Positions 11,121 to 51,700 of a stretch of DNA of 64,000 bases are shown here, piece by piece (within the stretch, counting starts at the first letter, position 1; the number at the start of each line of letters is the position of its first letter). The position numbers were made by a program, and so were the translations under genes. The notes beneath the pieces are model-generated. The model worked only from the letters and a program-made list of their open reading frames with translations, was not told the DNA's origin and searched no databases. The DNA comes from Botryllus schlosseri (taxonomy: Eukaryota): NCBI GenBank assembly GCA_051294905.1, contig CM119373.1:1180001-1244000 (forward strand). Reading direction: 5' to 3'.

Positions 11121-12043
11121 CAACTGTCTAACCCATCATATAGCTCTTTGATATGCAAATGAAAGAGAATAGAACCATACTAGAATAGGGTTACCATATT
11201 TTTGAAACCCAAATGCCGGACGCTGTTCAGCGCTCACTAGCGAATTCTAAAATGAGGTATGAGCACATTGTCGATAGGTATGACGTCACACCTGCAAATC
11301 TTTGTCAATCGACTAGAGTAGGGTTATCATATTTTGGACATCTGAAAAAAGGACTATTTTTCAAAATTTTTAAAGTTGCCAATCTGGGGGAAAATCCTGA
11401 AAAATAGTAAATTTTTCCCACTTCGTGCTCGGTTGACTGAAAGAAAAGGTCAATTTTCCGGCTCAGCTCCCGAAATACCCGCCGGAGCGTTACTTCGGCA
11501 GAGGTGGTCAAAGTAGTCAAGAAAGCTACTCAAGTAGAAGTAGAAGTAGCGACGAAAAATCTACTCAAGTACAAGTAGAAGTACTTCTTTCATGAGCAAC
11601 CTAAAACTACTTGAAGTAGAAGTAGAATTGACTGACTTTAAAAGTACTCAAGTAAGTAAGTAGTTGTGAAAACGATCCTAATTCGTTCACATGGATTGTA
11701 AAAAGGTGCAAATTGAGCTATGCGATAGGTGACGAGCTTGATTCATATTGATGCATACCAGCAGGTATCCAATTTTCGATAGCATAAGCATTCGTCCACA
11801 TCATGGGGTGAAAATGATAGTATTGATAAGGAATTGCGATACTAATCCCCTGTTTTCTCGAACAACGCGTTTTGGAAAATAGCATGGTATGGCGTCATCC
11901 CCCTATAACGCCCGTAGTTTAGTCGAAGAGCAATATGGTAGGCTTACCATGTTTTGGAAATCTAAAAAGAGGACACCTTTTCAGAAATTTGGGACTTGCA
12001 AAACTGCAATTTGCTCTAAAACTGACCTAAATTTTCAAAAAAG

Positions 12044-14289
12044 TGTAGCGTCCCCGATTCGGCGATAACTGCTTAGCGGGGACGACGTAACAGAGTGTTC
12101 GGGTTCCGGAACCTCTCCTGGCGACGGACGGTTGTTAACACACCACACGAGCCCAGCGTTGTACCATATATAAATCAGTTTAATTTCATAATCCAAGGCG
12201 AATCTTCAATACGGCCAAATACGCCAGTGTACACTAGTACACAATACACACAGACAATCGTTACTGCCCCATCCCTAGCCAAAAACCACTTGCCGACCCA
12301 AAAACTTCAGCGAACATTCCATGCGATTCTACGAAGGAAGCGCGAGTCTAACAAATCAAGTGTGACGACACAACGTAATTACTGGACTGTTACAAATCGA
12401 ATACCAGGGTTTTCACACTACCCTCACCTTTCTTGATTGGATTTTCCCTACAAAAAAATCTCAATCACACGACAAGACCTACTCAACTAACCAACTCTAC
12501 AAAGTAAAAGTTACCATCGCTAGCTTATCAAATCACATACAGTATTAGGCCTAGTATACAAATGTATAGCAATTCGTTCCACTGAACCGATAGATAAAGT
12601 ATTAAACTACAATGTCCGTTCCAAATTCGTATCCCCGCACAGTCCGATTCCCACAACTGAGACAACTCCTTCACGTCACTGCACCGATTCGCTCCTTCGA
12701 CGTCGTCTGTCTCGCTCCTCGAATGGTCAGCCTCAGACACTCAATCAAAATCCCGTTGGTCGCGAATGGGACGAAGGATTTCCGCAGCTCGCACCAACAT
12801 CCCTGGGCATCTGAACTCTCACGTGCACTCAGCGCAACACCATTCTCACACTTGGTGAAGAAAACATCGGCAGCCGCACTACTATGGCAATCATTCTCCT
12901 GCTGCTCGGTCTCAGGTAAACACGAACCGTCGCTCACAACGACCAAAACCGGCCGTATCGTCGAATCAATCCCGTCTGCAGCAGTGTTACCCCGGCAAAT
13001 GTCCGTTTTCCTGCTTTCCTCGTCGTCACGACAGCCAGAACACGGCATCTTAGTCTCAGGCATGCTTGACTCCTTGCCTTCCGCGACCAATATCGCGCAT
13101 GTCGTCGACGCAACTCCATCAGCAGTGCCCTCCCAGTAGGTGTCCGCTCTCCCATCCACGTCATCGTCACAGTAGCCACTAGTCTGTTGCTCAGTCAAAG
13201 GCAAGCCTGACTCCTTGCTTTCCGTGACCGATAGCTCACGCGTCGCCAAAGCAGCTCCAACAGCAGTAGGGCCATCCCAGTGGGTGTCTACCCTCCCACT
13301 CACAGCGTCATCAAGACAGCCACTACTCTGTAGCTCAGTCCAAGGCAAGCCTGACTCCTTGCCTTCTGCGACCAATAGTGCTCGTGTCGTCAAAGCAGGT
13401 CCATCCGCAGAAGTGCCATCCCAGTGAGTGTCTACTCTCCCACTCACAGCTTCATCAAGACAGCCACTACTCTTTTGCTCAGTCCAAGGCAAGCCTGACT
13501 CCTTGCCTTTCACGGCCAATAGCACACGTGTCGTCAAAGCAGCTCCAACAACAGCAGTGCCATCCCAGTGGGTGTCAACCCTCCCACTCACAGCGTCATC
13601 TGGACGGCCACTACTTTGTCGCTTAGTCCCAGGCAAGCCTGACTCCTTGCCTTCCGATTTCTGCTTTGAAATGCTTGTTCTAGCCGAAAGAATCCCTGTC
13701 CGGCTGTCGCGCACACAGTCAATCACAGCGGTGACTCCGGCCCCTTGGTCACCTCGCTGCTTCCTTTCATTGTATCCGGTAATGCACGCCTGTACCTTGT
13801 CCGACAGCTTCAGTAGAACATCCCTACGCCACTGCTCCGTCATGGCTTTCTTCCAGTCCATGCCGTTCCAACCGAACCGTCACTTTAAGAAGACGTCCTG
13901 GCGTGCTCGCCAATTTTGTAGCGTCCCCGATTCGGCGATAACTGCTTAGCGGGGACGTCGTAAAGAGTGTTCGGGTTCCGGAACCTCTCCTGGCGACGGA
14001 CGGTTGTTAACACACCACACGAGCCCAGCGTTGTACCATATATAAATCAGTTTAATTTCATAATCCAAGGCGAATCTTCAATACGGCCAAATACGCCAGT
14101 GTACACTAGTACACAATACACACAGACAATCGTTACTGCCCCATCCCTAGCCAAAAACCACTTGCCGACCCAAAAACTTCAGCGAACATTCCATGCGATT
14201 CTACGAAGGAAGCGCGAGTCTAACAAATCAAGTGTGACGACACAACGTAATTACTGGACTGTTACAAATCGAATACCAGGGTTTTCACA
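12044..14289 (-). mobile_element. Non-autonomous LTR retrotransposon (Gypsy-like cis signals)
   Basis: LTRs at 13917-14289 and 12044-12417 (TG...CA, about 374 bp; only 1 substitution and 1 indel seen), 4-bp TSD AAAG, PBS TGGCGAGCACGCCAGGA (13912-13896, resembling a tRNA-Arg 3' end), and PPT AAGAAAGGTGAGGGTAG (12434-12418). Confidence 0.93.
12671..13861 (-). CDS. 396-aa ORF inside the LTR element, 5-6 tandem 48-aa repeats; no RT, integrase or protease motifs
   Basis: ATG about 35 nt after the PBS. The repeat unit GKESGLPWTEQxSSGCLDDAVSGRVDTHWDGT...TTR has a 144-nt period (anchors near 13631, 13487, 13343, 13199). Confidence 0.7.
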   Translation of the reverse strand: MDWKKAMTEQWRRDVLLKLSDKVQACITGYNERKQRGDQGAGVTAVIDCVRDSRTGILSARTSISKQKSEGKESGLPGTKRQSSGRPDDAVSGRVDTHWDGTAVVGAALTTRVLLAVKGKESGLPWTEQKSSGCLDEAVSGRVDTHWDGTSADGPALTTRALLVAEGKESGLPWTELQSSGCLDDAVSGRVDTHWDGPTAVGAALATRELSVTESKESGLPLTEQQTSGYCDDDVDGRADTYWEGTADGVASTTCAILVAEGKESSMPETKMPCSGCRDDEESRKTDICRGNTAADGIDSTIRPVLVVVSDGSCLPETEQQENDCHSSAAADVFFTKCENGVALSARESSDAQGCWCELRKSFVPFATNGILIECLRLTIRGARQTTSKERIGAVT

Positions 14290-17200
14290 AAAGAGGACAA
14301 AATCTCAAAAAAGAGGACAAAAGGCCGTCCTCCGAGGACACTTTCAAAAAAGTCAAAAAAGAGGACAAATCCTCTTAAAAGAGGACGTATGGTAAGCCTA
14401 CAATATGGAGAAGTTGTATAGGATACGGTGTAAACACTTTTGCGCGATTAGTAAACGTTAATAAAAAATATGGTGGACCGTAAAAATACCATATTGTGTA
14501 GCTTTATTTCCAGAAATTAAAGGCATCACTGCACTTGCTTTTATACTTCAACATGTATGTTATTCGGACAAAAGAACTGATATTAATTATAACTCAAAGT
14601 ATATGATACTGAGAATTGAAAGTGAAATATAAATACTACTTCTAAAAGCAGAATATGTATTTCGTGTTTTTAGTTCAGAAAGTTTCAAAGGTGGTATGCT
14701 AAAACACTCTTCCCGATTAGGACACGCCATGGACATATATATGCTGGATTACGATATGACAAGAAAATGCTAGATTGCGAAACATCAGTTTCAAACGTTA
14801 TGATGAGCCATATATACTGTGATGAATTATTTCATGGGTGAAGGGCGACAATGTGGTGTGAACGGAACCACGCCAACCCTCCACCTAAATTATATTCACC
14901 GATACTTTCGTGAAATCATACTAGTCACTCCGTATCCACTGCGCGCGAAGCGCGACGAAAATTCTGTGCTTTACTAAGCTTTTATGAAAATTAAATGTTA
15001 ATACTCCGTGAAAACAGCTCCAAAATTCCTCAGGCTATCTTCCTGATTGGAGGACTAAACTGCTTCTACCTGACAAACTGAAAATAGCGAAAAGTAAGTA
15101 AGCAGATCACAATATATTAAGAAGTAGAAGTAGAAGTAGCGAAAATCAGATCTACTTGAGTAAGTACCAGAAGTAGAGGAAAACTACTTGAGTACTTCGA
15201 AAAAGTAGAAGTACTTCGTTACTGACCACCTCTGTACTTCGGTGCTGATTTACGGCATATCAGTCGAATGTGGCCGTAAATTTGACCAAACTTCTCAAAA
15301 AAGAGGACTAAAAGCTTCTTAAAAGAGGACGTATGGTAACCCTAGACTAGAAGCAGTCACGATCCGGCTCAGGAGTATGAGGATGTGTGTGTTGTAACCA
15401 GGGCCGAAGCCACATTTTTTCAGCCCCCTCTCGCCCAAATAAACACCAATAATGCAAGGAGCGTAGTTGTACATCGTTAAGTCGTGTTCATACATCATAA
15501 TAATCATCATCATCGTCATTGGTTTATTAGCAATTTTGATCAGTTCAATACACCACACAAATGCGATACAATGAAAAGATAGGATGATGTCGAAGCGACT
15601 TGGAGTAGACTATGGAATCGGGCATCCACCTTCCTACCACACCGTTTAGATTATTTATCGGCCTAATGCCGGTGCGCACTGCACCACTAAGCTACCGAAC
15701 ATCCGCTGGTTTCCAACCTTTCATATGGTCGTGTCTCCATTTCCAATATGAAAATGTTCCGTGGCCCAGCTCAAAATTTGATAAGCTGATTACTAATTAA
15801 AGGTCGGCACATTTGCCCAGACTTGCTCACGGCCTATTTTGAAAGTTGATTACGTTCAACATCTTCGCGAACCCCGAAATAAAGGCCAACTACCCTAAGG
15901 TTTGAACCGCCATCTTTGAATATAACACCCAAACGGCCTAAACCGACTCCACAAATATACCGATATCTTGTACTTGCGATTACAATTATATTCATTTCTG
16001 TAAATGAATGTTATTTGTATTTATTTTTGATCGCATTTTTGCGAGGATGGTAGTCTCCATATAAAAACCAATATATGGGATACTAAATCGCACTGAGCGC
16101 GGAGAAAAATTTCCTGTAACATAAATCTGCCCAAAAATAATATTGTGTACGTTGATTTGGAAAAAAATATGAGCTTACTTCAAAATTCCGCACATTCAGG
16201 CATATTTTGGAAATTCCTCCCGGTCGCAATATTACCAGTGAAATTCAGGACATGTCCGGGAAATTCCGGACTCATGGCAGCCCTATACTAGAAGTAGTTG
16301 ATATCATGTTTTTAAATCAATCATTTTACGCACTATCAGATAAAAGTTGCGGTAAAGGTTGGCATGGAAAACAGAGAAAGGTTGCAAAAAGTTGCACTAT
16401 AAAATCTCTCCAAACAACTTAAGACATCATTGTACAAGTACATGCACAATGTACATAATCTCAGTATCTAAAAGCTGTCGGATGCTGTAAAAAAGTGGCA
16501 AAAGTTGCAAAAACTTGCCCTAGTGATGACTCCGAGTTAGCAAAGGCTGCAAGAACATCACCCACGGAAGAAACCGGTGTCACAACCCAAGCCCAACGAT
16601 GACACGTGTCTTTCATCAGTAGAATTACTCACTTTTCAAAATCGACAACTACAACTAGGTCTACACCAGGGGTGGCCAGCCTGCGGCCGCAGAAGGAATT
16701 TTGTGCGGCCGTGTACACGTATTTCAATTAGTATGTGTTGGCGGGCGTCGACAAGAAAATTGAATTGGCGAATTTACTCCCAAATTTTTAGGGGATTTTG
16801 ATCAAACTTGAAATTTTCTTCGCGCTGTGCGCGATTCAACGCGACTTCATTTTCGATTTTAGTATAGCAGCACCCTTTGCAACCTAAGCACCACAGTACA
16901 CTGAGTACAGATGTAAACATGAACGAAAAATGATGCGCCCCATATATAAATACCAACTTGGAATCGTGTCCTCCTCACGAAAGAAATTTGTTTCCATGGT
17001 GCGTTTGGGTGATTTCGATAAATCTTTCCAATACCGCCAATCCTGCTGGGAGGTCAAGAAATAACAAAGTGACTTATTATAATCGGCTCACCCGTAGATA
17101 CATCATCATTTATAACTTGCCCTAAATTTTCGAAAACACAGCCTCCATTAATTTTACCTGGGAATCTGATCACATTGGCTGAGAAAGGATAAATGTTTGA

Positions 17201-45700: not shown

Positions 45701-48700
45701 CCACACTGTTGGGAGTTCGTCTATTGGTACTGGTGCTTAAAAATGCGACCAGAAACTCCTAAAAGTGAGGAAAATTAGTATATTATGAATGCAAATCATT
45801 CGATATCACCAAACAGAGTTATAAAAAGTGGGTTTAACAAGACTTTAACTGGAAACAGAGCATTCAACACGATGACTTGGACTCGAGTCATAATACCATG
45901 ACTCGGACTCGACCCTCTGCTCGCTGACTCGCACTTGACTCGGTGGTGAATTGAAAATGACTCGACTTGACTCAAGTCAAAACTATAAAAACAATAAAGA
46001 CTTGTGACTTGGAGCCTTGTAACTCGGTTACAACCCTGGTTCTTGCAGTCATTGCTAGCTCAGAGTCATCACTACTATCAGTGGTGTAGAGTGTCGAGAT
46101 AGCGCAGTGGTATAATCCACAGCGGCAACACCAATGGATGCGGGTTCGAGTCCGACCGAGGTTGACTTCCGAATGCCGATATCCAAGTGTTGGAGGCTTA
46201 CCTAGGCTCCTCCTCGCTATCTCATCCGCGTCAGCGGTGTCTTACAAAAGCCTAGAGGTGGGCAGTGCTATAAGTCGGCAGCTACGGAAAATAAGAAGAA
46301 GTCCGGCCTGGTGTAAATGACCATAGTAGTCGACAAACATCATGAATACCCCAAAACAAACTATCACTGGTGTAGTCAGGGGTGGGTTTTAGTGGTCGAA
46401 ACCCTCCCAATTCAAACTTGTACTGATGGTTATGTCGAAAGGTGACACGATTCCGATAACATATAAGAGCTTCTTTGAGGTACAGAACTTCAATGTACAA
46501 TTTAACAGTATAATCATATTGAAATGAAACCGAATATTTTCGGCTGACACTCATCAGGGGTAATCGTCAGCAACTAGGAGAGAATTGGAAAGAACATTGT
46601 ATATCAACAATCGTATCACAAAACATGACGTCACCAGCATGAAAGAGAGAGCGTTCAATGTACTATTTTCAGTGGGTAGACGAACTCCTTCTGTTGACAG
46701 AGTTTTGGTTGGTGTGTTTTGATAAAAGTCAACTCCAAGGCACACAAATGGAATTGTGAACGGCCCCGCCCAACGATTCGAAATTGGTCGTCTTGATAAT
46801 TTTTCGCACAGATCGGATTATCTAACAGATGTCTGCCGATGGCATGACATGACATAAAACGTTAATGAGTTGCTTCAGAATCAAATCTATTCCATTGCCG
46901 ATTTTTGAATTTCGTTGGTTCTGGTTCTAATTCTAGTTGCACGTGTGGAAATCCAGTCATTTCTACACTTCTGCTCTAAATACCCATTTTATTGGTTCAT
47001 TCCAGTGTACACTCTCCGTTAGCGATTTATTGGTGAGCGATGTAGCCGACACTTATTACTCGATGTACCTGAGATACATTTCTACAGCGGGATCAACGCT
47101 TCTACATCCTGTGCCTGTCCTTGTGTCAAACTACGAGGGTGACACGGGCACTGTCAATCAAGGTGAGTTACTACATTAGCAGTGCTGGTCAATAACTGGT
47201 GCTTCTATGTTTTCAAGTAATCAAGTAGATTTTGCTGATTGTCAATACTTTAGTGCTTCTGTATGTAGACTACTTCTACATGAGCGTGTTTTTTGACAAA
47301 ACTACTACTATGGCTTTGTAACGGTAAAAAAATTTAAATATGTAGCTTTCAAGCGACCACAAGGAATATATGAAGAGCTTCTTGGAGGTACAGAACTTCA
47401 ATATACAATTAAATAGTATATTCATATTGAAATGAACCCGAATATTTTCGGCTGACACTCGTCAGGGGTAATCGTCAGCAACTAGTAGAGAATTGGAAAG
47501 AACATTGTATATCAACAATCGTATCACAAAATATGACGTCACCAGCATGAAATTTCGAATGAGAGAGCGTTCAATGTACTATTTTTAGGTGATACACGAA
47601 CTCCTTTTGTTGACAGAGTTTTGGTTGGTGTATTTTGATAAAAGTTGATTCCAAGGCACACAAATGGAATTGTGAACGGCCTCGACCTACAATTCGAAAT
47701 CGGTCGTCTCGATAATTATTCGCACAAATCGGATTATCCAACAGATGTTTGCCGATGGCAGAATTAATGGCTTTTGATCGATCAGCATCAATCTTGAGTG
47801 GATGAGTTAAGGGTGAGCTTTTCACATCGCGTGACGCACATGTTCTGATAAATCTGGGGACATGTTGGTTTATGCGGTCCTGCAGACGTCTTGACGTTCT
47901 TCCCACGTAGCCACAATCACAGTGGCACCTATATTCGTACACTACATTACTTTGTTGAAGTGCAGGAAGCACGTCTTTGCGTGTTGAAGGGAGCAGTTGT
48001 GTTGTTGTAAAAATCACATTGGTTTTGACTGTATCGTAACATTTACCGACAGCAGAAATCAATTGTTTTTCAAAGCGGGTGGAAATGGGGCCAATCCAAG
48101 GTAGATGGATATAAACATCTTTTATTATTCGTGCGGTGGGCTCTGTTCGTTTTTCTGCGTTGAATTGCGTTAATTTCCTCTCCATGCCGCGGCTGATGAC
48201 GTGTTCAGGGTAACCGTTATCAAGTAAGATTTTTCGGATGTAGTCAAGTTCTAAACTCAATTTGTTACCCGAACATATCATCAGCGCTCTATGCACGAGT
48301 GTGCCTATGAGGTTAATTTTTCTGCGCCGAGGACTAAATGAATTCCAGCGAAGGTATTGGCCTGTGAAAGTCGGTTTTCTGAAAACAGACGTTTCAAATT
48401 TGTTGGTATTGCGCTTTTCAACTAATACGTCCAGAAATGATAATGAGTTATTGCGTTCTTTTTCTATTGTGAATTGCAAGGCCGGGTGAAGCGAGTTTAA
48501 GCGAATGAGAAATTGGTCACACTCCGATTCATTCCTGAAAATGACAAATGTATCATCTACGTATCGGCGGTACAATAGTGGTTTGGCGGACTCACGCTGG
48601 GACAGAAGCTCGCCCTCGTAATACCCTACGAAAATGTTGGCCAAAATAGGTCCCAGGGGACTACCCATGGCTAAGCCGTCTATTTGGCGAAACATGACCT

Positions 48701-51700
48701 CGTTAAAGCTAAATTCCACCGAGCAGGTTGCCGCTTGTAAAAGTTCCACAAAGACGTTACGCGGGATTGATGGTGGCGGTAACTTACCACCGTACAGCGC
48801 GTTGGCACAAATATCAATAGTCTCATGCAGCGGAACGTTCGTAAAAAGACTAGAGATATCAAATGAGCTCAGAAACACGTCTGGATTCGGCAAATCCAGG
48901 TTTCGTATTTCACCAGCGAACGTGAACGAATCGCGAACACATTCCGTGCCGTACAATTCCCGAACCGGTTCCAAAATGTCAGTAAGCCATTTTTTTTACG
49001 AACGTTCCATTGCATGAGTCATATTTTGTGATACGATTGTTGATATACAATGTTCTTTCCAATTCTCTACTAGTTGCTGACGATTACCCCTGACGAGTGT
49101 CAGCCGAAAATATTCGGGTTCATTTCAATATGAATATACTATTTAATTGTACAAGGAATATAATGCCCGCTCTACATCACATTACAGATAATTTGGTATT
49201 TTTCGACCATGTGTATTTCATTACTCTTTGTGACGATCAGGGTTGTAACCAAGTCACAGTCCATCTCACTTTTATAGTGTTGACTCGACTCAAATCGAGT
49301 CATTTTCAATTCACCACCGAGTTTGATCCCGAGTCCAAGTCATCAAGCAGAGGTTCGAGTCCAAGACATTGTATTGACTGCTCAGTTTCCAGTTAATGTC
49401 ACGTTAAACCCACTTTTATAACTCTATTTGGTGATATCAGGTGGTTCGCTTTTATACTTTGCTAATTTTCCTCACATTTAGCACTTTCTGGTCGCGTTTT
49501 CAAGTACCAGTACCAATAGACGAAATTCCAATAGTGTGATTACTTCACTATTACTCGAAAATACAATGAAATGTCGGTCTTGGCCGTCCGAGCCTCGAGT
49601 CATTTCCGTATTTTGAGAAAATGACTCGAGTCTGGTCGAGTCATCGGAAAGTCGTGACTCGAGTCATTACAATCCTGGTGAGGATGCTGTGGGCTGATCA
49701 CCACTTGACAAATATAGCATTTGCAGTAACGTGCCTAGTAGGGCTGTTCAAAAAAACTTTTTCAGATTTCACTGGCAACTTGATATAATTGTTAGTTTGG
49801 TGAGAACAACACTTCGCACCAACTTTGACTCAATCCCAACCAGTAGAAACGATTTTTTTGCTGTAGAAAGTTTTGAATTTATCATTAAAAAACAAAAAAA
49901 GAATATTTCAAAATTTTTCTGTCCACCCCTTAAAATTGTTAGGTTGTCAGTATAGATGATGCACACCAAATTTGGCTCAATTCCAACAAGTATAAGCGAA
50001 GTTATTGCAGTAGAAAAATTTGAATGGGAATAAAATAGTATTTACGATGACTAACTCTTAAATTATTTACTACAAAATCACGGAATTCAAAACTTTCAAC
50101 TGCAACAACTTCGCTTCTAGTGGTAGGAATGGAGCCAAAGTTGGTGTGTAGCGTTGTTTTCAACAACCTAACAATTTTATCAAGTAGCCAGTGAAATCTG
50201 AATTGAAAGTTTATTTTTGAACAGCCCTAGTGCCTAGCTTTGGAGGCTACTACATGTTTCGTACGCTGCCGCACAACCAATGGAGATCTACAGCCTTCCA
50301 CAGTGGAAAATAGTATCGAAATTATAATTCTTGTTACTCTTAATGGCAAAAAGCGTATATCTTCAGTAATAGAAAAAACATCTCTCACTCGAATACTCAA
50401 TTCAGATTCGAGTACTCGTATTATTGAGGCCATCTCTAACCGAAAATATGTGTTGACCAATATCAATGACCTTTTACAGTTAATATCAGCATTGATGAGT
50501 ATTTGTGAGCAATATCCTAACCCTCCAATTTCGTGTCTCGTAAATTTATTATACCATTTACCATTACACCATTATATACCAAATGATCAGTTAGTTTGCA
50601 GCCAATTGACTAGATCAAGGGTTCTCAGCCCTTTCCTGGCCATGGCCCATTTTCCGGTTCAAAAATGTGCTGTGGCCCACCTGTTTAATGCGTCGTCATG
50701 GACAACGCCGATATGCCTATTTCTCTAAAATAGGCGCATTTTTCTCTAACTGATGATATTTAGAACTCGCTCTCCCGGGATATGAAATCGCGCCAAGCGC
50801 GAAATAAATTGCAACTAGAGTAAACATCCTCCAACAAACGACCAACGAAATAATCTTGGGCTCCTTCGAGCTCCCCCAATTGGGGGTGAGGGTGCTGCAG
50901 TTACAGCCCTAGTATATCATAAGCTAAAACTCCTAAGTAGATTATTTTCGTCCGCTGCTCCATTCACGTCGCGAAACACAATGATCACTTCCCCGCACTG
51001 TGTGATTGGGACTTAAGTGATAGGCCTACTATTGTGGGGAATACTATAATCATTATGGGCCAGCATCGAACAATTCATTGGTGAATATGGTACCACAGAG
51101 AATCGGAGAATGATTTTTCAATATGCGTGATGTACTTTGTATGTCTTGTGCCAAAACAAGTGAAGTTGCGATGTCAGAATATTCAATCCAATGATACAAT
51201 CAATTCCTGTGACTCTTCCATTATGTATACAATGATTTCCAGGTCGGACATTTTAAACCGACTTCAAAGATTTTTGCACTCCGATAAATTCTCAATCCAT
51301 TAAGATTCGTTGTGTTGGTGCAGTATACATCCGGCAGAAGTTGCAAATAATTTGCTATTATGACTCATTTTAGCTTGCAATAATACGGCCTGCCGAAGTA
51401 CAGTAAATCTGTACATCAATTGCACTTCAATGCGAGTCCATTGCACACCCTTTTCAACGGCATACGACAAATGACCGTGCCGGAATACTTGGTTACTTCA
51501 GCATCATCTTCCAGTTATTATACGCTTGAAATTATTTTAGTTACTGTTAGCCGTAGTTTGTCATAGCCAGTAGAAAAAGCCACCGTTTCTCCCTAACGTT
51601 TTCGATTTGTACATGCTGACTTTATACGTGCCACTACGCCTAATCAGAGTCGGATGAAAAGCTTTATGTAGCGTACGTATAATTCGATTACGTATCTATA

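What the first reader, a model, noticed from the sequence alone, without database searches (positions are those of the whole stretch)
12044..14289. Very young non-autonomous LTR retrotransposon whose only cargo is a 48-aa tandem-repeat protein
Seen: a 2.25-kb element with near-identical 374-bp LTRs, a 4-bp TSD, a tRNA-Arg-like PBS and a PPT. Its single uninterrupted 396-aa ORF starts just after the PBS and comprises a helical-looking N-terminus plus 5-6 copies of a 144-nt repeat that diverge progressively toward the 3' end. No recognisable gag knuckle, protease, RT or integrase motif is present. Inference: the repeats differ at many sites yet remain stop-free on the coding strand, whereas the antisense frames are broken, which suggests selection on the protein. 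It may be a satellite (TRIM/LARD-like) element encoding its own accessory, decoy or capsid-associated protein while borrowing pol from a Gypsy helper.
Basis: partly seen in the sequence, partly recalled or inferred. Interest (0 to 1): 0.75.

Follow-up and report, generated by a model that had tools for sequence, protein, structure and literature searches.

The report
Satellite retrotransposon with open filler gene
This is a young, multi-copy jumping gene with no copying enzymes of its own, which likely borrows them from a Gypsy-type partner; it keeps one long reading frame open while most of its amino acids drift, so likely only the protein's short helical start and the act of being translated matter.

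Summary
The element is real: 2,246 bp, LTRs differing at 2 sites, 4-bp TSD, primer site matching the genome's tRNA-Arg(ACG), one 396-aa ORF. It is not a one-off deletion. Five full-length copies (family A) each have their own TSD, a sister family B carries a homologous ORF (about 36% identity, 43-aa unit), and a third lineage lies outside this assembly. Gypsy elements with gag and pol share its primer site and LTR tips and are the likely helpers. No Gag, Pol, Pfam or PDB homology was found. The frame is protected: 7 of 8 ORF indels are multiples of three versus 3 of 19 outside, and about 28 stops were expected across the A-B tree but none is seen. The amino acids are barely protected: dN/dS is 0.7-1.0 in the repeats and about 0.5 at the ends, against 0.35-0.42 for gag. 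A third satellite here keeps only its helper's Gag N-terminal helix (dN/dS 0.24) plus a neutral open tail. Best reading: a short helical head plus open filler, not a functional repeat protein. Translation is untested. New variant of a known kind.

The parts
12040..12043 (.). Target-site duplication (AAAG), left copy
   Evidence: 4-base overlap in uninterrupted copies of the flanking repeat
12044..12417 (-). 3' LTR, 374 bp; tips shared with Gypsy elements L104/L105
12179..12184 (-). ATTAAA, likely polyadenylation signal (inferred; present in all 9 A and B copies)
   Evidence: single-cell reads pile up just upstream
12418..12432 (-). Polypurine tract
12418..12670 (-). 3' internal non-coding region, 253 nt; its last ~55 nt resemble those of helper L133/L106 and of non-coding satellites
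12671..13861 (-). Single 396-aa ORF with stop codon (P0001)
12674..12937 (-). C-terminal 88 aa: start of a sixth unit plus a unique tail; dN/dS 0.54 between families for the last unit plus tail
12938..13654 (-). Five tandem units (48, 48, 48, 47, 48 aa), acidic and rich in G, S, A, T; frame kept, dN/dS near 1
13655..13861 (-). N-terminal head, 69 aa, predicted helix (low confidence) at residues 3-35; core conserved in A, B and P0007; dN/dS 0.49 between families
13895..13912 (-). Primer-binding site for tRNA-Arg(ACG)
13917..14289 (-). 5' LTR, 373 bp; holds five upstream AUGs
14290..14293 (.). Target-site duplication (AAAG), right copy

Best explanation
This is a recently inserted copy of a non-autonomous LTR retrotransposon family that likely borrows capsid and enzymes from the genome's tRNA-Arg-primed Gypsy elements, and whose single ORF likely works as a short helical head followed by filler that only has to stay readable. 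Shown: the structure, independent insertions, termini shared with gag-pol elements, a protected frame, weak amino-acid constraint, and sense RNA at family level. Inferred: the RNA is translated; the ~65-aa head is a Gag N-terminal helix diverged beyond recognition and helps its own RNA join helper particles; the repeats carry the stop codon to within about 250 nt of the 3' LTR, which would keep the RNA on ribosomes and stable. Repeat number and sequence are then largely free.
For: Five full-length A copies with five different 4-bp TSDs and 1-6 LTR differences each. L104 has gag, a PR-RT-RH-IN pol, the same PBS, a 4-bp TSD, 9/11 and 11/11 identical LTR tips; the gag-protease family L105 matches 11/11 and 11/11. 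Frame: 7 of 8 ORF gap runs are multiples of 3 versus 3 of 19 in 3' LTR and 3' region, Fisher p=0.0009; about 28 nonsense changes expected on the A+B tree, none seen. Sequence: dN/dS 1.0, 0.74, 0.81 for repeat units (not significant), 0.49 head (p=0.012), 0.54 C-terminus (p=0.004), gag controls 0.35 and 0.42. Unit number varies among intact copies (3-5) by in-frame loss or gain. Precedent in this genome: family C keeps only its helper's Gag N-terminal helix (hhalign 97.9%; dN/dS 0.24, p=0.002) and a tail with dN/dS 1.0 ending about 127 nt before the LTR; the gag-protease family has an open 245-330-aa tail, dN/dS 0.72. The ATG sits at +51 (A) and +47 (B) from the PBS, as in L133 gag (+51). Metaviral Gag N-termini are described as mutually dissimilar single helices flanked by disorder (PMC11011659 section 9). 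Sense-strand reads in three single-cell runs.
Against: No homology between the head and any Gag was detected: hhalign probability at most 1.5% against six Gag N-terminal sets, no HMM hit better than decoys in 100 fetched stretches, no Gag hit genome-wide. Non-coding satellites with the same PBS (families E-I) have no ORF over 103 aa and are at least as numerous, so a long ORF is not generally needed; they also have an AUG near +50, which weakens the positional argument. Five AUGs lie in the 5' LTR (8 in B), against 0-3 in four gag-bearing elements; 8 reads put an RNA 5' end near LTR base 21, upstream of all five. Head and C-terminal dN/dS rest on one deep branch and a protein-guided alignment, which biases them down; within families the head gives 0.55 (A) and 0.87 (B), untested for significance, and replacements are no more conservative than chance (z 0.64). 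Three of the seven in-frame gaps are whole-unit losses, in frame by unit length. No protein-level evidence exists.
Confidence: 0.5

Rival explanations
1. Only translation matters: the whole ORF, head included, is filler kept free of stops because ribosome transit stabilises or localises this longer RNA, and the protein is discarded.
For: Within-family dN/dS 0.76 and 1.17; no bias to conservative changes in any part; AlphaFold pLDDT 28 and 40; no homolog beyond one sibling. For yeast Ty1 a minimal level of translation is suggested to be needed for RNA stability (PMC3945221 passage).
Against: Head and C-terminus show dN/dS near 0.5 between families (p 0.012, 0.004); the head core is kept in three lineages; ORF-less satellites thrive; family C shows that a head can be under real selection.
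Confidence: 0.25
2. One reading: the repeats form a functional accessory, decoy or scaffold protein whose units bind a host or capsid partner.
For: The unit pattern (EG..S.LP..EQ) is recognisable in A, B and P0007; whole-ORF dN/dS between families is 0.64, p=0.0005; the frame is protected. A disordered or decoy protein can show dN/dS near 1 (general knowledge).
Against: Unit dN/dS 1.0, 0.74, 0.81, none significant; units are lost freely; no confident fold even with 24 aligned two-unit pieces; shared unit pattern is explained by common descent.
Confidence: 0.15
3. The ORF is an unselected leftover of a recent internal deletion or of a captured host exon, open only because the element is young.
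For: dN/dS near 1 within families; 1 of 5 full-length A copies is frameshifted and three older or interrupted copies carry stops.
Against: A and B are about 36% identical in protein and both open; expected stops about 28, P about 5e-13; no parent gene or element matches in the genome.
Confidence: 0.05

Closest known systems
ERVL-MaLR (THE1, MST, MLT1) of mammals; PMC11359688 passages
   Same: Non-autonomous LTR elements without pol and env; a THE1D copy is predicted to hold a 464-aa ORF of unknown function.
   Different: MaLR shares homology with ERV-L gag; here no Gag homology is detectable, the ORF is mostly a tandem repeat, and the likely helper is a Gypsy element.
Bhikhari Bik-1/Bik-2 of zebrafish; PMC12067270 passages
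   Same: Young, pol-less LTR families with one intact ORF that need a partner for enzymes.
   Different: Bik ORFs are full Gag proteins with a host role; this ORF shows no capsid or zinc knuckle and little sequence constraint.
TR-GAG, TRIM and LARD elements of plants; PMC13570524 passages
   Same: Non-autonomous LTR elements, often with no traceable partner (61 of 115 beet families).
   Different: TRIMs were defined under 1 kb, LARDs over 4 kb, TR-GAGs keep a GAG ORF; the paper notes no term for 1.5-4 kb. This element is 2.2 kb with a long non-Gag ORF.
Family C of this genome (L125, L136, L169, L175; described here)
   Same: Small satellite, same PBS, one ORF made of a helical head and an open neutral tail ending near the 3' LTR.
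   Different: Its head is plainly the Gag N-terminal helix of helper L138 and more strongly selected; its tail has no 43-48-aa repeat that I noted.

Membership tests
Non-autonomous LTR retrotransposon | Paired TG...CA LTRs with a TSD | tested here: met
Non-autonomous LTR retrotransposon | tRNA primer site and PPT | tested here: met
Non-autonomous LTR retrotransposon | No pol | tested here: met
Non-autonomous LTR retrotransposon | Independent insertions of the same short structure | tested here: met
   5 of 5 full-length A copies have distinct 4-bp TSDs
Non-autonomous LTR retrotransposon | Mobilised in trans by a named helper | not testable with these tools
   only shared PBS, PPT and LTR tips
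Metaviridae (Ty3/Gypsy) affiliation | pol order PR-RT-RH-IN | tested here: inconclusive
   met in the candidate helper L104; the element has no pol, so affiliation rests on cis signals
TRIM | Under about 1 kb and non-coding | tested here: not met
   2.25 kb with a 396-aa ORF; size limit from PMC13570524
LARD | Over 4 kb and non-coding | tested here: not met
TR-GAG / Bhikhari-type gag-only element | Recognisable Gag (capsid, zinc knuckle) | tested here: not met
MaLR | Homology to ERV-L gag | tested here: inconclusive
   no direct comparison with MaLR sequences; general protein searches found no such hit
Gag-head satellite (family C type) | Head homologous to the helper's Gag N-terminal helix | tested here: inconclusive
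   no significant match, but the test is weak: the true neighbours L104 and L133 reach only 12.6% in hhalign
Gag-head satellite (family C type) | Constrained head, neutral open tail ending near the 3' LTR | tested here: met
   constraint weaker than in family C

The most novel reading that the evidence does not exclude
A class of capsid-less satellite retrotransposons makes a 'Gag-head' protein: a short helix that docks onto the helper's Gag while still on its own ribosome and so pulls the satellite RNA into helper particles in cis, with an expendable repeat tail as tether. Families A, B and C would be an older and a younger origin of the same trick, and would give a function for the poorly understood N-terminal helix of metaviral Gag.
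Probability: 0.25. Interest if true: 0.75.

Novelty: new variant of a known kind. Interest (0 to 1): 0.5.

Why it matters
Non-autonomous LTR elements are usually non-coding or keep a recognisable Gag. Here two sister families keep a long non-Gag frame open over deep divergence with little amino-acid selection, beside a family that keeps only the Gag N-terminal helix. One genome thus offers a natural series (full element, gag-protease, Gag head only, orphan head, non-coding) for asking what the Gag N-terminal helix does and whether a retrotransposon RNA needs an open frame for its own sake. It also warns that a long intact ORF in a young element is not proof of a functional protein.

Tried and rejected
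Homology: Pfam gave only FlgD_ig at 22.8 bits, under its cut-off of 27, taken as chance; none for family B. Word-index search with P0001 found nothing among 7,997 scored candidates; the head profile against longer proteins found only P0007; the full HMMER scan of 1.84 billion representatives found only P0007; ESM Atlas gave no usable hit twice; PDB sequences gave one hit at E 0.96. AlphaFold models had pLDDT 28 and 40, so no fold search was run. A motif that looked shared by eye between the head and L133/L104 Gag (..RT.L) was not significant. The best shuffle score, family A against L184 Gag (z 4.7, one of about 60 pairs), fell in the Gag linker and gave 1.5% in hhalign: rejected. A complex prediction of the head with L104 Gag residues 12-88 returned no answer (score 0.01); it is no evidence either way. 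No RNA holder was listed on record; contigs X1 and X2 are only guessed to be RNA and were not used as expression evidence. Flanks could not serve as a silent control because they are abundant repeats. Nine literature searches (listings only, apart from the six papers cited) showed no description of such a repeat-ORF satellite; the library lacks most subscription papers and Repbase/Dfam were not available. Look-ups of earlier findings near this place and by sequence were empty.

Full report
Observation. The element lies on the minus strand at 12044-14289 (2,246 bp). Its LTRs (373 and 374 bp) differ by one substitution and one indel. The 4-bp TSD is confirmed by uninterrupted copies of the host repeat elsewhere, which match both flanks with a 4-base overlap. 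The primer site matches the 3' end of genomic tRNA-Arg(ACG) genes. The 396-aa ORF has a 69-aa head, five units of 47-48 aa that fall from 83-88% to 62-66% DNA identity toward the 3' end, and an 88-aa tail. The host is an animal with a 496-Mb assembly; an earlier unchecked note calls it tunicate-like, which I did not test.

Family. The LTR search gave 29 matches and the internal search 13 (lower bounds). Five copies are full length (2,094-2,284 bp, 91-92% identical to the window copy), each with its own 4-bp TSD and 1-6 LTR differences. Four have an intact ORF; L024 has a 7-base insertion. Two further copies are interrupted or truncated and carry stops; all 6 solo LTRs examined have 4-bp TSDs, two of them being one duplicated insertion. 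Copies differ by about 6-7% in the ORF while their LTR pairs differ by under 2%, so the divergence arose during repeated copying, not after insertion.

Sister lineages. A protein search found family B: four full-length 2.1-2.4-kb copies with 403-404-bp LTRs (0-2 differences) and one degraded copy. TSDs are perfect in 2 of 4, 3-of-4 in one and not evident in one. Its ORF (337-423 aa, 43-aa unit) aligns with A from start to stop at about 36% identity. The only hit among 1.84 billion representatives is P0007, a 205-aa protein from an unnamed Logan contig, 42-56% identical to the A and B matches and absent from this assembly: a third lineage.

Helper. The exact primer site occurs 98 times. I read 80 stretches of 8.5-10 kb covering 84 of them; 10 more are A or B copies and 4 were seen over 3 kb only. 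They sort into gag-pol families and several satellites. L104 (5,696 bp, identical LTRs, 4-bp TSD) has a 434-aa gag and a PR-RT-RH-IN pol. Family A shares its U5 tip 11/11 with L104, L105 and L133, its U3 tip 9/11 with L104 and 11/11 with L105, and its PPT best with L133 (15/20); other gag-pol families match less. Similarity is confined to these signals. The helper is therefore likely the L104/L133 clade; which one is open.

Origin of the ORF. No Gag or Pol homology was found by tblastn, profile HMMs or hhalign against these 80 stretches and 20 further gag loci, nor genome-wide with three queries. A one-off deletion is excluded. Descent of the head from a Gag N-terminus is neither shown nor excluded: the neighbours L104 and L133 themselves reach only 12.6% in hhalign, and such N-termini are described as mutually dissimilar helices (PMC11011659, section 9 read).

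Selection. The frame is protected. In alignments of the 5 A and 4 B full-length copies, 7 of 8 ORF gap runs are multiples of three, against 3 of 19 in the 3' region and 3' LTR (p=0.0009; three of the seven are whole units). About 28 nonsense changes are expected on the A+B tree and none is present. Within-family expectations (about 5 each) are less telling because I chose intact copies. The amino acids are weakly protected. Codon models give dN/dS 0.76 (A, p=0.17), 1.17 (B, p=0.44), 1.0 for the five window units, 0.74 and 0.81 for all A and B units (p 0.11, 0.31), 0.64 for A+B (p=0.0005), 0.49 for the head (p=0.012) and 0.54 for the C-terminus (p=0.004); two gag controls give 0.35 and 0.42 (p under 1e-6). 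Protein-guided alignment and recombination may bias the deep values. Replacements are no more conservative than chance, though this test was also weak on the gag controls (z 1.3, 1.7). AlphaFold gave no confident fold.

Parallel families. Family C (1.35 kb) keeps only the N-terminal helix of L138 Gag (97.9%), with dN/dS 0.24, followed by a tail at 1.0 that stays open to about 127 nt before the LTR. The gag-protease family has an open non-pol tail (0.72) ending 207-458 nt before the LTR. A and B end 223-274 nt before it. Against a general need for translation, 26 copies of five other satellite groups have internal regions of 465-882 nt and no ORF over 103 aa.

Expression. In three single-cell runs of one study 58, 56 and 111 reads of about 22 million each lay on the 3' LTR plus internal region, mostly at 90-99% identity, nearly all in one orientation, piled at the start of the LTR and reaching into the 3' internal region; a bulk run gave 89 unstranded reads, many over the 3' half of the ORF. 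Eight reads carry what I recognise from recall as a template-switch adaptor at 12398, which places an RNA 5' end on the element's sense strand near LTR base 21. This is low, family-level transcription; part may be short LTR-only RNA from solo LTRs. If full-length RNA starts there, five AUGs precede the ORF. There is no silent-region control and no protein evidence.

Mechanism. Shown: structure, transposition, shared signals, protected frame, weak constraint. Inferred: trans-mobilisation, translation, a role for the head in joining helper particles, and a role for the open filler in keeping the 3' untranslated part short. I put this head-plus-filler reading at 0.5, translation only at 0.25, a functional repeat protein at 0.15 and a neutral leftover at 0.05. 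For Ty1, trans packaging is efficient and some translation may be needed for RNA stability (PMC3945221, passages).

Comparison. It works like MaLR (PMC11359688 and PMC4724089, passages), Bhikhari (PMC12067270, passages) and TR-GAG (PMC13570524, passages) in being pol-less with one ORF, but fails their Gag criterion and the size criteria of TRIM and LARD. Nine paper searches showed no matching description; supplements were not read, and repeat libraries were not available. Verdict: new variant of a known kind, interest 0.5.

Noticed in passing
L125, L136, L169, L175, L146 (e.g. G000:C4:8.99 Mb): Family C: 1.35-kb LTR satellite whose 250-aa ORF is the Gag N-terminal helix of autonomous family L138 (40% identity, dN/dS 0.24) plus an acidic tail with dN/dS 1.0. 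Arguably a cleaner system than the finding itself.
   Followed up: partly
L105, L120, L121, L134, L155, L198, L199: 3.6-kb family with gag and protease only, then a 245-330-aa open K/R-rich tail not alignable to L104 pol (dN/dS 0.72, not significant); LTRs over 99% identical where measured.
   Followed up: partly
L109, L117, L163, L123, L154 groups: Five groups of non-coding LTR satellites (0.8-2.3 kb) share the tRNA-Arg primer site; the L109, L117 and L163 groups have LTR ends related to families A and B.
   Followed up: partly
window 11930-12043 and 14290-14400: The element landed inside an abundant short repeat (units of tcaaaaaagaggac) whose other copies are 98-99% identical to the right flank; likely a young MITE-like element.
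   Followed up: partly
window 47571-48995 (-): 474-aa open frame that reads like a Penelope-type reverse transcriptase with a C-terminal endonuclease (label recalled, not tested).
   Followed up: no
L025:3468-7260: A 3.8-kb insertion with short terminal inverted repeats interrupts an older family A copy; likely a DNA transposon.
   Followed up: no
L147 (G000:C8:20289670-20289735): Two exact primer sites 48 bp apart in one small satellite.
   Followed up: no
L034 and L037 (G000:C4:7.66 and 7.71 Mb): The same solo LTR with the same flanks occurs twice, inverted, 44 kb apart: a segmental duplication or assembly duplicate.
   Followed up: no
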